Below, in pieces: positions 2,587-6,523 of a stretch of 64,000 nucleotides of DNA. Location of the stretch: NCBI RefSeq assembly GCF_988242995.1, contig NZ_OZ547043.1. One strand, 5' to 3'. Under the pieces are notes generated by a model. The model saw only the letters and a list, made by a program, of their open reading frames with translations, did no database searches and was not told where the DNA came from. The translations under genes and the position numbers were made by a program. Every line of letters starts with the position of its first letter. The first letter of the stretch is position 1.

Positions 2587-4065
2587 ATGTCGAAAAAATA
2601 CATCATAGGGATTGATGGTGGAAGTCAGAGCACAAAAGTGGTGATGTACGATCTGGAAGGTAATGTGGTTTGCGAAGGCAAAGGCTTATTGCAGCCGATG
2701 CACACGCCAGATGCCGATACCGCAGAACATCCTGACGACGATTTATGGGCATCATTATGCTTTGCCGGTCACGATTTGATGAGTCAGTTTGCCGGAAATA
2801 AAGAAGATATTGTCGGTATTGGTCTGGGATCCATCCGTTGCTGCCGTGCGTTATTGAAAGCCGATGGCACGCCAGCTGCGCCGTTGATTAGCTGGCAGGA
2901 TGCACGCGTTACACGCCCTTACGAACATACGAATCCTGACGTGGCATATGTCACCTCTTTTTCAGGTTATCTGACGCATCGCTTAACCGGCGAGTTTAAA
3001 GACAATATCGCCAACTATTTTGGTCAGTGGCCGGTGGATTATAAGACCTGGGCATGGAGTGAAGATGCCGCAGTCATGGAGAAGTTTAATATCCCCCGTC
3101 ATATGCTGTTTGATGTGCAAATGCCGGGCACTGTTCTTGGGCATATCACTCCTCAAGCCGCGCTGGCGACACATTTCCCGGCTGGGCTGCCGGTTGTTTG
3201 TACCACCAGTGATAAACCGGTTGAAGCACTGGGAGCTGGGTTACTGGATGATGAAACGGCGGTAATTTCTCTTGGCACTTACATCGCGCTGATGATGAAC
3301 GGCAAAGCACTGCCGAAAGATCCGCTGGCGTACTGGCCGATTATGTCTTCTATTCCGCAAACATTGCTGTATGAAGGTTACGGTATCCGCAAAGGCATGT
3401 GGACGGTGAGCTGGCTACGCGACATGCTAGGCGAGTCGTTAATTCAGGATGCCAAAGCACAGGATCTTTCACCGGAAGATTTACTCAACAAAAAAGCGTC
3501 TTGTGTGCCGCCAGGCTGTAATGGTCTGATGACGGTGCTGGACTGGCTGACCAATCCGTGGGAACCGTACAAACGCGGGATTATGATCGGCTTTGATTCC
3601 AGCATGGATTACGCATGGATATATCGTTCGATACTGGAAAGCGTGGCGCTGACGCTGAAGAACAATTTCGACAATATGTGTAATGAAATGAATCACTTTG
3701 CAAAGCATGTGATCATTACTGGCGGCGGTTCGAACAGCGATCTGTTTATGCAGATTTTTGCCGACGTGTTCAACCTTCCGGCACGCCGTAACGCCATTAA
3801 TGGTTGTGCAAGCCTGGGGGCAGCGATTAATACGGCGGTAGGTCTGGGGCTATACCCGGATTACGCAACGGCTGTCGACAAAATGGTTCGCGTGAAAGAT
3901 ATCTTTATGCCTGTTGAGAACAATGCCAAACGCTACGACGCGATGAATAAAGGCATTTTCAAGGAGTTAACCAAACATACTGATGTAATCCTGAAAAAAT
4001 CGTATGAAGTGATGCATGGGGAATTGGGGAATGCGGATTCGATCCAGAGCTGGTCGAATGCGTAA
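2587..4065 (+). CDS. ygcE: FGGY-family carbohydrate kinase
   Basis: 492-aa ORF; N-terminal IGIDGGSQSTK sugar-kinase fold motif; RBS aggaga 7 nt upstream. Confidence 0.85.
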   Translation: MSKKYIIGIDGGSQSTKVVMYDLEGNVVCEGKGLLQPMHTPDADTAEHPDDDLWASLCFAGHDLMSQFAGNKEDIVGIGLGSIRCCRALLKADGTPAAPLISWQDARVTRPYEHTNPDVAYVTSFSGYLTHRLTGEFKDNIANYFGQWPVDYKTWAWSEDAAVMEKFNIPRHMLFDVQMPGTVLGHITPQAALATHFPAGLPVVCTTSDKPVEALGAGLLDDETAVISLGTYIALMMNGKALPKDPLAYWPIMSSIPQTLLYEGYGIRKGMWTVSWLRDMLGESLIQDAKAQDLSPEDLLNKKASCVPPGCNGLMTVLDWLTNPWEPYKRGIMIGFDSSMDYAWIYRSILESVALTLKNNFDNMCNEMNHFAKHVIITGGGSNSDLFMQIFADVFNLPARRNAINGCASLGAAINTAVGLGLYPDYATAVDKMVRVKDIFMPVENNAKRYDAMNKGIFKELTKHTDVILKKSYEVMHGELGNADSIQSWSNA

Positions 4066-4111
4066 GTGAGGAAGACCGGGCGGGAAACTGCCCGGCCTGA
4101 ACATACCTGAA

Positions 4112-4249
4112 TGGTTATCCCCGCTGGCGCGGGGAACATAAGTTCGACAACTTAAAAAATGATAACAAGTCCGGTTTATCCCCGCTGATGCAGGGAACAT
4201 AATAAAAACTTTAACTAGTTCGGTTTATCCCTGTTTTTACAAGGAATAT
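4112..4249 (-). CRISPR. Degenerate short CRISPR locus: three decayed type I-E-like repeats
   Basis: Repeat-like units at 4112-4139, 4172-4200 and 4221-4249 resemble cggtttatccccgctggcgcggggaactc with increasing divergence; first spacing about 32 bp, second only 20 bp. Confidence 0.6.
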
Positions 4250-4700
4250 TAACTACACTCGATGTATTTAGAATAAAAGACAATACGAATCGCACTTTAT
4301 CAATTTTCACTTAAAGTATGAACTGGATATCTTTATTCATAAGAACTATTCATCAACAGCGTATAGAGGCGATTATGTAAAACCACTCATTAGCCTCAAA
4401 ACAAAGACAAATTTCCAGATTTATTACTTAATCAATGAATAACAAGCTTAAAAAATACACTGTTATTCTAAAGAAAAAATTAACAGGCATTAATTAATAT
4501 TAAAAAAATAATATGTTAAAATTTCTTAACGGTTTAAGGATTATACAAATAACACTTTGATTAAATTTTATTTTTTGTATCGATAATTGTGAACTTGTCA
4601 TATATGGAGAGCTATTTTGAACATGAGGTGTTACGTGGATATGTTGCTTAATACGAGTACTGCTAATATAAAAACTTGAGAAAGAGATAACGGGTTATAT
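4250..4700 (-). promoter_or_regulatory. AT-rich tract between the two CRISPR loci; positionally the leader of the degenerate array
   Basis: Strongly AT-rich non-coding stretch on the same side of the repeats as the leader of the main array. Confidence 0.35.
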
Positions 4701-4702
4701 GG

Positions 4703-5219
4703 TGGTTTATTCCCGCTGGTGCGGGGAACTCATCAGTGATATCCAACATTGCGGAGCTAAACGCGGTTTATCCCCGCTGGCGCGGGGAACTCAATTAGCC
4801 CGCCTCGCGCGGGTTTTTTTGTGCCGGTTTATCCCCGCTGGCGCGGGGAACTCTTTACTTATCTGCAAATATTTTTTGTCAGCTGCGGTTTATCCCCGCT
4901 GGCGCGGGGAACTCACGAACGCGGCACACCAGGGCGTCTCATCGTCCGGTTTATCCCCGCTGGCGCGGGGAACTCGAACACGACAGGAGTGATAAATGTA
5001 CGCACATCGGTTTATCCCCGCTGGCGCGGGGAACTCGGCTGATAGTGCTTCTGATTATTCGGCGCAAGCGGTTTATCCCCGCTGGCGCGGGGAACTCTAG
5101 GACCCAATATAAAACCGACTGGTTATTTTCGGTTTATCCCCGCTGGCGCGGGGAACTCTTTCAGTCTGGAACACAACGGCGTTAAATAACCGGTTTATCC
5201 CCGCTGGCGCGGGGAACTC
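4703..5219 (-). CRISPR. Type I-E CRISPR array, 9 repeats of 29 bp and 8 spacers of 32 bp; terminal repeat at 4703-4731 is degenerate
   Basis: Repeats start at 4703, 4764, 4825, 4886, 4947, 5008, 5069, 5130, 5191 with an exact 61-bp period; minus-strand repeat is GAGTTCCCCGCGCCAGCGGGGATAAACCG, the canonical E. coli I-E repeat. Confidence 0.95.
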
Positions 5220-5420
5220 ACTAAACATAACCTATTATTAATTATTGATTTTTTAAGTCAGTCACAATCTACCAACTTAACAGAAACACACAAACAACAC
5301 ATCCATTATGTTAAAGAGCACTTAATTCATTGATTGAAAAGCCAAATATTTAAAGTAATTCTATACCGACTAAAATCCACCAAACTCCGACGTAATAATT
5401 TTCACTCCAACGAAAAATTA
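5220..5420 (-). promoter_or_regulatory. CRISPR leader (AT-rich, adjacent to the newest repeat)
   Basis: AT-rich sequence abutting the intact repeat at 5191-5219, opposite the degenerate end; typical leader position. Extent is approximate. Confidence 0.55.
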
Positions 5421-5558
5421 ACGCCACAGAATTTGTAGATAATGACAATGATTAGTCCGGAATGGGCAAAATGGATGAGTTTTCAGAGGCGACAAAAAAT
5501 ATAAATGAGTGGAAGTCTTTACAGGTTCCACCCATTTATAACGCTTATAAATGTTTAA

Positions 5559-6230
5559 TCAGGCAATATTTAAATATTTATGTGTTTGCATCGACAAACG
5601 CCAGTTGCGCGCAATGCACGTATCGATACATAAACGAGTAGCATCTTCCTTTTGGCTAATCGGCTGCAGCGCAATGACTCGCGGTTTATCATCGGTCAGT
5701 GTTGCCAGTAGTTCATCCAGTGCTTCAATATCACGCACGCGTCCCACTGGATGCTTGATTTCGTTGGCTCGCTCCAGTGCCTGTGACAACACTTCATAGC
5801 CGCCGCGCATGTTCAGCTTTGGCGATACGGTAACCCAGGTATTCGGTGTGCAGCGTACTTCATGAGTACCACTGGTTTCGATCTGGCAGCTAAAACCGTT
5901 CTTTTCGAGCAGGTCAGTCAGTGGCAGCAAATCATGAATGCAAGGCTCACCACCCGTAATCACCACATGCCGCGCGGTGTATCCCTGGCGACCAATGACA
6001 GCCAGCAAGTCTTCACTGCTCGCCGCCCCCCACTTATCACTCTCTTTGGTCTTCGCCAGAATGCTGAAAAGGGAGACTTCCCGATCCTCAAGCTTTTCCC
6101 AGGTGTGTTTGGTGTCGCACCAGGCACAGCCAACCGGGCATCCCTGTAAACGAATAAAAATGGCGGGGACGCCGGTAAAGTAACCCTCACCTTGCAGGGT
6201 CTGGAACATCTCGTTAATCGGGTACTGCAT
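5559..6230 (-). CDS. queE: 7-carboxy-7-deazaguanine synthase (radical SAM, queuosine biosynthesis)
   Basis: 223-aa ORF with CxxxCxxC-type cluster motif region (LQGCPVGCAWCDTKH). Confidence 0.9.
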   Translation of the reverse strand: MQYPINEMFQTLQGEGYFTGVPAIFIRLQGCPVGCAWCDTKHTWEKLEDREVSLFSILAKTKESDKWGAASSEDLLAVIGRQGYTARHVVITGGEPCIHDLLPLTDLLEKNGFSCQIETSGTHEVRCTPNTWVTVSPKLNMRGGYEVLSQALERANEIKHPVGRVRDIEALDELLATLTDDKPRVIALQPISQKEDATRLCIDTCIARNWRLSMQTHKYLNIA

Positions 6231-6523
6231 AGCATTCTCTGTGAAGTGGATAATTGTTAATTATTGCAGATCCTGCCGCAACAATCATGTCTTATTAACA
6301 TTCTGTTACAGGCAGGTTTAAAGAAAAATGAGAAACAGATCGTTAATAATAAAAGGGAGTAACGTATTATGTCAGAAATAAATAAAGCAAATGGATTTAA
6401 TCATGTCAAAAACATTCACCAAAATTATACTTATTTTTTCTGTGTTCGTTTTTAATTATAACGAATCTCAAATTACCGATGTCGCCGTCAATTTATTTAT
6501 CCAGCTTTAATGGGACATTTATA

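What the first reader, a model, noticed from the sequence alone, without database searches (positions are those of the whole stretch)
4793..4824. One spacer looks like a captured intrinsic terminator
The spacer aattagcccgcctcgcgcgggtttttttgtgc contains a GC-rich hairpin (cccgc...gcggg) immediately followed by a T7 run, which is the architecture of a rho-independent terminator. That suggests the protospacer came from the 3' end of a transcription unit in a phage or plasmid.
Basis: seen in the sequence. Interest (0 to 1): 0.3.

Follow-up and report, generated by a model that had tools for sequence, protein, structure and literature searches.

The report
CRISPR spacer copied from phage terminator
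One 32-base memory unit in an E. coli CRISPR array is a copy of a transcription stop signal of the kind found between phage genes, which is an expected and ordinary by-product of how CRISPR samples invader DNA.

Summary
Window 4793-4824 is exactly one 32-nt spacer of an E. coli type I-E CRISPR array (4703-5219, ygcE-queE locus, transcribed on the minus strand). On the plus strand it carries a 7-pair hairpin with 5 G-C pairs and a 5-nt loop, followed directly by T7. About 5 in a million random 32-mers have this architecture, so it is not chance.

No exact protospacer was found in any collection searched: phages, plasmids, 5,426 E. coli genomes, IMG/VR, metagenome contigs and GTDB genomes.

The best near matches are 29/32. 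Every near match whose surroundings were examined lies between genes, just downstream of a phage or plasmid gene and in the sense orientation. They include:
- the site starting at the first base after the stop codon of the tail-assembly gene in T1-like Sertoctavirus phages;
- sites after cI-like repressor genes;
- sites downstream of a Q-antiterminator region in lambdoid elements.

The specific donor cannot be named, because this terminator shape (CCCGC-loop-GCGGG-T7-GTGCC) recurs in many unrelated phages.

In the array the T-run is antisense to the pre-crRNA, so it should not truncate array transcription. This is an ordinary spacer of low interest.

The parts
4703..5219 (-). Type I-E CRISPR array of the ygcE-queE locus: 9 repeats, 8 spacers, 61-nt period
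   Evidence: Repeat family D1 and sequence. The same locus is annotated 'CRISPR' between ygcE and queE in E. coli strain MEW.
4793..4824 (-). The spacer in question (32 nt), second oldest in the array. The crRNA-sense sequence is GCACAAAAAAACCCGCGCGAGGCGGGCUAAUU.
   Evidence: It is present in only 1 of 5,426 complete E. coli genomes (strain MEW), where it sits in the homologous array.
4797..4815 (+). Hairpin of the captured terminator: 7 pairs (5 G-C, core CCCGC/GCGGG), loop CTCGC at 4804-4808
   Evidence: strand folding gives -10.9 kcal/mol. The terminator-like scan lists it on the plus strand only.
4814..4820 (+). T7 run directly after the stem. On the pre-crRNA (minus) strand it is an A7 run that precedes the hairpin.
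   Evidence: Sequence. No terminator-like site is found on the minus strand of the spacer.
4764..4792 (-). Flanking repeat on the leader-distal side of the spacer
4825..4853 (-). Flanking repeat on the leader-proximal side. Its first plus-strand base, C4825, is the position that in type I-E derives from the G of the PAM.
   Evidence: The origin of that repeat base in the PAM is established knowledge of E. coli I-E adaptation, not tested here.
4703..4731 (-). Degenerate terminal repeat (TGGTTTATTCCCGCTGGTGCGGGGAACTC), marking the leader-distal end of the array
   Evidence: (84% identity to the reference copy)
5220..5400 (-). AT-rich leader, with a promoter-like site at 5261-5234 reading into the array. 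The far boundary is approximate.
   Evidence: Sequence and promoter scan. Strain MEW has two extra repeat-spacer units on this side, which is where new spacers are added.

Best explanation
The element is an ordinary spacer of an E. coli type I-E CRISPR array. Cas1-Cas2 captured it from a 33-bp stretch of foreign DNA, most likely a phage or prophage, that happened to span a complete rho-independent terminator between two genes.

The array is transcribed on the minus strand from the leader at about 5220 onward. The pre-crRNA therefore carries the reverse complement of the terminator: an A7 run, then the hairpin, then CUAAUU. With no U-tract after the hairpin, transcription of the array should not stop there.

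Inferred from established knowledge of type I-E systems, not tested here: Cas6e would cut the flanking repeats, Cascade would carry the 61-nt crRNA, and the guide would pair with the sense strand of the phage terminator next to a PAM, recruiting Cas3.

The terminator architecture is a passenger property of the donor DNA, not a designed feature of the array. The donor cannot be named. The candidates are the terminator between the tail-assembly and J-like tail-tip genes of a T1-like (Drexlerviridae) phage, a terminator after a cI-like repressor gene, or a terminator in the Q-region of a lambdoid phage.
For: Shown here:
- Spacer length, periodicity and repeats are exact.
- The locus is annotated CRISPR between ygcE and queE in strain MEW, which shares all 8 spacers and has an intact cas3-casABCDE-cas1-cas2 operon with no pseudogene flags.
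- Orientation is supported by the degenerate repeat at the left end, the AT-rich leader on the right, and MEW's extra units on the right.
- The terminator architecture is far beyond chance: about 5e-6 of random 32-mers.
- Sertoctavirus phages match 29/32, starting at the first base after a stop codon and in the sense orientation. The three differences lie in the loop and after the T-run, where a terminator is least constrained.
- The same intergenic hairpin plus T-run is kept across six Drexlerviridae genera and an unclassified Klebsiella phage. Two stem pairs show compensatory changes, and a conserved TATAAT follows.
- Some homologues of that site have the spacer's exact T7-GTGC tail (SLUR29 and contig L029).
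- Other 28-29/32 matches all lie after phage genes.
- The flanking trinucleotides at these sites give PAMs CAG, TAG and AAG. The literature places CAG and TAG in the interfering group and among the non-AAG PAMs most used in naive adaptation; AAG is the consensus PAM (PMC6568314).
- No chromosomal copy exists in 5,426 E. coli genomes.
- The expected rate fits. In phage BrunoManser, 0.25% of all 32-mers contain a whole strict terminator, 0.1% of AAG-flanked ones do, and about 1.6% do by the loose rule. Such spacers should therefore turn up now and then.
- The predicted pre-crRNA fold keeps both flanking repeat hairpins intact.
Against: - No exact protospacer was found in INPHARED phages, PLSDB plasmids, E. 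coli genomes, IMG/VR, JGI/ENA metagenome contigs or GTDB representative genomes.
- The 26-nt core occurs in at least 8 unrelated phage contexts.
- A sister terminator with a TTCG loop occurs in 56 IMG/VR contigs with 39 different upstream flanks. Matches of 26-29/32 therefore say little about the donor.
- In the Sertoctavirus match, two of the three mismatches fall at crRNA seed positions 3 and 4. Those particular phages would probably escape direct interference.
- cas genes lie outside the window, so they could not be checked for the window strain itself.
- Whether the system is expressed is unknown. E. coli I-E is H-NS-silenced in laboratory strains (established knowledge).
Confidence: 0.85

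Rival explanations
1. The donor was a conjugative plasmid rather than a phage: the spacer derives from a terminator in the transfer region of an IncI2-type plasmid.
For: About 60-kb E. coli, Salmonella and Shigella plasmids carry AGCCCGCCTCGTGCGGGTTTTCTTTTGC in the gap between an EexN-family lipoprotein gene and the next gene. This is 25/28 in BLAST and 26/32 over the full length, with PAM CAG. A Pantoea megaplasmid has a 29/33 match, but in a prophage-like cI/cII region.
Against: The IncI2 match is weaker than at least ten phage matches. It also breaks the T-run and has a mismatch at seed position 4 and at position 7. Because this terminator shape is generic, a 26/32 match is no evidence of descent.
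Confidence: 0.08
2. The hairpin plus T-run is a coincidence in a spacer taken from coding or otherwise non-terminator DNA.
For: The hairpin energy alone is not exceptional for this composition (z = -1.5). A few distant BLAST hits in Pseudomonas, Serratia and Synechococcus phages overlap 'hypothetical protein' annotations.
Against: The strict architecture occurs in about 5e-6 of random 32-mers. Every close match whose context was inspected is intergenic and downstream of a gene in the sense orientation. The hairpin and T-run are conserved, with compensatory changes, at the homologous phage site.
Confidence: 0.03
3. The spacer was taken from the host's own chromosome, from a terminator of a bacterial gene (a self-derived spacer).
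For: CCCGC/GCGGG stems followed by a T-run are common in enterobacterial terminators. The exact 26-nt core is found in an Enterobacter mori chromosome scaffold.
Against: In 5,426 complete E. coli genomes the only chromosomal hit is the CRISPR array of strain MEW. The Enterobacter copy has the same flanks as the lambdoid Q-region contigs, so it is a prophage.
Confidence: 0.02
4. Beyond being a guide, the captured terminator has a local effect. On the plus strand it stops transcription that enters the array from the ygcE side, antisense to the pre-crRNA, and so shields the array from convergent transcription.
For: In the 3500-6500 region scanned, the hairpin-plus-T7 at 4797-4820 is the first canonical plus-strand terminator-like site downstream of ygcE. 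The hairpin just after the ygcE stop codon (about 4079-4098) has no T-run.
Against: There are no transcript data. Thousands of E. coli genomes carry this array without this spacer, so no such function is needed. The orientation is simply what the PAM dictated. This is pure inference.
Confidence: 0.05

Closest known systems
Spacers of the E. coli type I-E CRISPR array at the ygcE-ygcF(queE) locus (CRISPR-II / CRISPR2.3)
   Same: It has the same 29-nt repeat, 32-nt spacer length, 61-nt period, genomic position, degenerate distal repeat and AT-rich leader. The oldest spacer is shared with many other E. coli genomes.
   Different: This particular spacer is rare: 1 of 5,426 complete genomes. Its content is a complete terminator rather than coding sequence. 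That is a difference of content, not of kind.
Intrinsic terminator between the tail-assembly (gpI-like) and J-like tail-tip genes of Drexlerviridae (T1-like) phages, e.g. Sertoctavirus BrunoManser and SRT8
   Same: 29 of 32 positions match, including the six bases before the stem (AATTAG), the whole stem and T7. It begins at the first base after the stop codon, in the sense orientation, and the phages infect E. coli. Homologues in Warwickvirus SLUR29 and contig L029 carry the spacer's exact T7-GTGC tail.
   Different: No sampled phage combines the 5' part and the 3' part. The loop is CTTGC, not CTCGC. The PAM at the site is CAG (AAT in SLUR29), not AAG. Mismatches at crRNA positions 3 and 4 fall in the seed.
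Terminators in lambdoid prophages: after a cI-like repressor gene (IMG/VR contig L022; Pantoea megaplasmid) and in the region downstream of Q (L018, L021, L033, L034; Enterobacter mori)
   Same: The match is 26-27 contiguous bases from the PAM-proximal end, including the CTCGC loop and GTGC tail, giving 28-29/32 overall. PAMs are TAG, CAG or, in L034, the consensus AAG. All mismatches are PAM-distal (crRNA positions 27-32). The Pantoea copy has the AATTAG 5' flank.
   Different: Apart from the Pantoea copy, the 5' six bases differ. The Pantoea copy has three loop or stem changes and a 1-nt insertion. None of these elements occurs in the 5,426 E. coli genomes.

Membership tests
Type I-E CRISPR array spacer (E. 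coli) | Flanked by direct repeats matching the E. coli I-E consensus, with a regular 61-nt period | tested here: met
   There are nine repeats. Eight are identical (CGGTTTATCCCCGCTGGCGCGGGGAACTC, the reverse complement of the canonical repeat) and one distal repeat is degenerate. Spacing is 61 nt throughout.
Type I-E CRISPR array spacer (E. coli) | Spacer length of 32 nt | tested here: met
   4793-4824 is 32 nt, and all 8 spacers are 32 nt.
Type I-E CRISPR array spacer (E. coli) | Leader at one end, degenerate repeat at the other, and growth at the leader end | tested here: met
   The AT-rich region with a promoter-like site lies at 5220-5261. The degenerate repeat is at 4703-4731. Strain MEW has two more units at the leader end.
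Type I-E CRISPR array spacer (E. coli) | Cognate cas genes (cas3, casA-E, cas1, cas2) in the genome | tested here: inconclusive
   They are not in the window: the window starts in ygcU and the cas operon lies about 16 kb further out. In strain MEW, whose flanks are 99.35% identical and which has the same 8 spacers, a complete I-E operon is annotated without pseudogene flags.
Type I-E CRISPR array spacer (E. coli) | A matching protospacer with a PAM in a mobile element | tested here: inconclusive
   No exact match was found anywhere. The best matches are 29/32, with PAMs CAG or TAG. A 28/32 match has AAG.
Rho-independent (intrinsic) terminator | G+C-rich stem-loop | tested here: met
   7 pairs, 5 of them G-C, with a 5-nt loop, at -10.9 kcal/mol.
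Rho-independent (intrinsic) terminator | U/T-tract immediately 3' of the stem | tested here: met
   T7 at 4814-4820, of which the first two bases can extend the stem.
Rho-independent (intrinsic) terminator | Located downstream of a gene's stop codon, on the sense strand, in the donor | tested here: met
   This was tested on the nearest relatives only. The distance from the upstream ORF's stop codon is 0 nt (Sertoctavirus) and 13-23 nt in four other phage contexts. In the lambdoid Q-region it is about 370 nt, behind another hairpin. The site is always in the sense orientation.
Rho-independent (intrinsic) terminator | Structure conserved in homologues, with compensatory changes | tested here: met
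   Eight Drexlerviridae I-J sites give a consensus 7-pair stem. Two pairs show changes on both sides, and the T-run is invariant. The sample is small and covariation is modest.
Rho-independent (intrinsic) terminator | Actually terminates transcription | not testable with these tools
   This needs a reporter assay or Term-seq.
Drexlerviridae tail-assembly/J intergenic terminator as the specific donor | Exact or near-exact (at least 31/32) identity with a usable PAM | tested here: not met
   The best match is 29/32 with PAM CAG. The 5' and 3' halves of the spacer are matched by different members of the family.

The most novel reading that the evidence does not exclude
Because the spacer copies a generic terminator cassette rather than a gene, one crRNA could recognise several unrelated phages. 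The 26 PAM-proximal bases are identical in at least four unrelated phage or prophage contexts that carry interference-proficient PAMs: AAG in L034, TAG in L022, and CAG in L018, L020, L021, L033 and the Enterobacter mori prophage. Their only mismatches are at PAM-distal positions 27-32, which type I-E generally tolerates. T1-like phages, with seed mismatches, could still trigger priming. Retention of this spacer might then reflect unusually broad, cross-family coverage. A related unexplained point is why the loop and the GTGCC(TG) tail of such terminators recur in so many unrelated phages.
Probability: 0.2. Interest if true: 0.4.

Novelty: already known. Interest (0 to 1): 0.15.

Why it matters
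It matters little. The finding confirms that CRISPR adaptation samples intergenic regulatory DNA as well as genes, at about the rate expected from how much of a phage genome terminators occupy (0.1-1.6% of candidate 32-mers).

Two small practical lessons follow:
- A spacer that is a terminator cannot be used to name its donor. This terminator shape recurs in unrelated phages, so host-virus links drawn from matches of 26-29/32 would be unreliable.
- The orientation in which such a spacer is inserted decides whether it would truncate the pre-crRNA. Here it is the harmless orientation.

Tried and rejected
- BLAST of the spacer against phages, plasmids and E. coli genomes gave no exact protospacer. 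The low-complexity filter also hid some relevant hits: SLUR29, at 27/32, was not listed. I therefore added exact-pattern scans.
- IMG/VR, scanned with the first 28 bases (loop position as C or T), gave only phage SRT8 itself.
- Metagenome contigs, scanned with the full 32-mer and three free positions, gave only one more Sertoctavirus-like contig carrying the same three differences.
- GTDB genomes, scanned with the 26-nt core, gave three hits, none with the right 5' flank.
- Rfam gave nothing at gathering threshold across 3900-5600, so it gave no independent check of repeat orientation.
- I considered that the 'spacer' might be a decayed repeat, because its CCCGC...GCGCGGG resembles the repeat palindrome CCCGCTGGCGCGGGG. 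I rejected this: the unit length is exact, and the phage matches extend through the non-palindromic flanks.
- I considered that the spacer hairpin might misfold the pre-crRNA. The predicted fold keeps both neighbouring repeat hairpins, so there is no support for this.
- I tried to use the neighbouring spacer as a clean PAM control. It matches a phage tail-fibre gene at 31/32, but with PAM AGG and a mismatch at position 1. It supports the orientation only loosely.
- A second control terminator from BrunoManser (GGAGCC...) had no IMG/VR hits. Recurrence is therefore a property of the CCCGC-type terminators, not of all terminators.

Full report
**What is at the coordinates.** Window 4793-4824 reads aattagcccgcctcgcgcgggtttttttgtgc. 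It lies between two copies of the 29-nt repeat CGGTTTATCCCCGCTGGCGCGGGGAACTC (4764-4792 and 4825-4853). These belong to a run of nine repeats with a strict 61-nt period spanning 4703-5219. The repeat is the reverse complement of the canonical E. coli type I-E repeat (my own knowledge of the family).

The leftmost repeat (4703-4731) is degenerate. The right flank (5220 onward) is AT-rich, with a promoter-like site at 5261-5234 on the minus strand. The nearest sequenced relative has two further repeat-spacer units on the right side. The array is therefore read right to left, on the minus strand, and the spacer in question is the second oldest of eight.

That nearest relative is E. coli strain MEW, isolated from an ivory gull. 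There the locus is annotated 'CRISPR' between ygcE and queE, and a complete I-E cas operon (cas3, casA, casB, cas7e, cas5e, cas6e, cas1e, cas2e) lies about 16 kb away with no pseudogene flags. The window is not MEW itself: the flanks are 99.35% identical and the array is two units shorter. The cas genes lie outside the window.

**Is the terminator look real?** Folded as plus-strand RNA, the spacer forms a 7-pair stem (4797-4803 with 4809-4815; 5 G-C pairs, core CCCGC/GCGGG) with loop CTCGC at -10.9 kcal/mol, followed by T7 at 4814-4820. The energy alone is not unusual for this base composition (z = -1.5). The architecture is unusual. Among 200,000 random 32-mers, a stem with 5 G-C pairs followed at once by at least 7 T in 8 occurred at about 5e-6 at 50% G+C, counting either strand. 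The scanner's loose rule matched about 0.7%.

**Search for the donor.** No exact protospacer exists in any of these:
- 50,697 phage records;
- 72,556 plasmids;
- 5,426 complete E. coli genomes, where the only chromosomal hit is the MEW array;
- IMG/VR;
- 241 million metagenome records;
- 100,044 GTDB representative genomes.

The best full-length matches are 29/32. The most telling one is in the T1-like Sertoctavirus phages BrunoManser, SRT8 and IME-JL8, and in a human-gut contig. The match starts at the first base after the TAA stop codon of the tail-assembly gene. It runs in the sense direction and lies 77 nt before the J-like tail-tip gene. The three differences are one loop base and two bases just after the T-run, the positions a terminator constrains least.

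The homologous intergenic site in six Drexlerviridae genera and an unclassified Klebsiella phage keeps the hairpin, an invariant T-run and a TATAAT box just downstream. Two stem pairs show compensatory changes. Some of these homologues (Warwickvirus SLUR29, contig L029) have exactly the spacer's T7-GTGC tail. The spacer thus looks like a mosaic of variants seen at this one site.

**Why the donor still cannot be named.** The 26-nt core CCCGCCT[C/T]GCGCGGGTTTTTTTGTGC occurs in 21 IMG/VR contigs, in at least eight unrelated contexts:
- the T1-like I-J site;
- upstream of the T1-like terminase genes;
- in a lambdoid Q-antiterminator region, between a phrog_4350 ORF and a DNA methyltransferase gene;
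- 16 nt after a cI-like repressor gene;
- 20 nt after a tail-terminator gene;
- and others.

Several of these reach 28-29/32 with all mismatches at the PAM-distal end. A Pantoea megaplasmid has AATTAGCCCGCCATGTGCGGGCTTTTTTTGTGC-CTG 14 nt after a cI-type HTH gene in a cI/cII region. As a control, a sister terminator from BrunoManser with a TTCG loop (CCCGCTTCGGCGGGTTTTTTTGTGCC) is present in 56 IMG/VR contigs with 39 different upstream flanks and G+C from 0.42 to 0.67. A control with a different stem had no hits. This shape of terminator is therefore generic, whether by convergence or by spread. Matches of 26-29/32 show the class of the donor site, not the donor.

**PAM.** In the crRNA sense, the trinucleotide before the protospacer is:
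- CAG at the Sertoctavirus site and most lambdoid sites;
- TAG at L022 and L014;
- AAG at L034;
- AAT at SLUR29.

A systematic study reports that fewer than half of naively acquired E. coli spacers come from AAG protospacers. It also reports that CAG, GAG, TAG, AGG and ATG are the next most used, and that all belong to the interfering group (PMC6568314). A CAG or TAG flank is therefore compatible with both capture and interference.

**How it most likely works.** Shown here: it is a regular spacer in a regular I-E array, and a close relative has intact cas genes. Inferred from established knowledge of type I-E: Cas6e cuts the repeats, Cascade carries the crRNA GCACAAAAAAACCCGCGCGAGGCGGGCUAAUU, and the guide pairs with the sense strand of the phage terminator next to the PAM, recruiting Cas3.

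The T-run is on the strand opposite to the pre-crRNA. The transcript therefore has A7 before the hairpin and CUAAUU after it, and no minus-strand terminator-like site is detected. Array transcription should not be truncated, and the last spacer (4732-4763) should still be expressed. The predicted fold of the surrounding pre-crRNA keeps both neighbouring repeat hairpins. Against the sampled Sertoctavirus phages, the mismatches at crRNA positions 3 and 4 (seed) would probably prevent direct interference, though priming remains possible.

**Expected frequency.** In phage BrunoManser I count 15 strict terminators. Of all 32-mers, 0.25% contain a whole one. The figure is 0.1% for AAG-flanked 32-mers and about 1.6% by the loose rule. 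A spacer of this kind is therefore expected occasionally among the thousands of known E. coli spacers, and nothing suggests preferential capture.

**Rivals.**
- Plasmid donor (IncI2, 26/32): weaker than the phage matches.
- Chance hairpin in coding DNA: excluded by the statistics and by the context of every inspected match.
- Self-derived spacer: there is no chromosomal copy in E. coli.
- Local role as a plus-strand terminator protecting the array from transcription coming from ygcE: it cannot be excluded, but it has no support beyond position.

**Verdict.** This is an ordinary, already understood phenomenon. The only mildly interesting residue is that the spacer targets a terminator cassette shared by unrelated phages, which could give one guide unusually broad reach.

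Noticed in passing
IMG/VR loci L014-L034 and L042-L097; BrunoManser L036 at 14356, 16498 and 49249: Terminators of the form (A)A-CCCGC-loop-GCGGG-T7-GTGCC(TG) recur with identical loop and tail in many unrelated phage contigs. One form is in 21 contigs across at least 8 contexts. The TTCG-loop form is in 56 contigs with 39 different upstream flanks and G+C from 0.42 to 0.67. The bases after the T-run (GTGCC, often followed by TG) are not needed for a terminator, so their recurrence is unexplained.
   Followed up: partly
L001 2501-2545 and alignment A1: In Drexlerviridae the terminator after the tail-assembly gene is followed within about 10 nt by a conserved TATAAT (ccTGTATAATg) ahead of the J-like tail-tip gene. 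This is a conserved terminator-promoter pair inside the tail gene block.
   Followed up: no
window 4854-4885: The neighbouring spacer matches a tail-fibre gene of Escherichia phages vB_EcoM-569R10, 720R5, 705R4 and 783R5 at 31/32. The mismatch is at crRNA position 1 and the flank gives PAM AGG.
   Followed up: partly
window 4108-4249: Three decayed I-E-like repeats (about 4111-4139, 4172-4200 and 4221-4249) lie just after ygcE. A roughly 450-bp AT-rich stretch (4250-4700) separates them from the main array. They look like the remnant of a second small array with its own former leader.
   Followed up: no
window 4703-5219 versus L003 5911-6549: Strain MEW shares all eight spacers. One differs by a single base (window 5098 TAGG..., MEW TCGG...). 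MEW also has the leader-proximal spacer TTTCAGTCTGG... duplicated, plus one further new spacer.
   Followed up: partly
window 4732-4824: The oldest spacer (4732-4763) is shared with many complete E. coli genomes, but the next one, the terminator spacer, is found only in strain MEW among 5,426 genomes. This lineage's array diverged from the common type right after the first spacer.
   Followed up: partly
window 4066-4100: The hairpin just after the ygcE stop codon (ccgggcgggaaactgcccgg) has no T-run. In the 3500-6500 scan, the first canonical plus-strand terminator-like site downstream of ygcE is the captured spacer itself.
   Followed up: no
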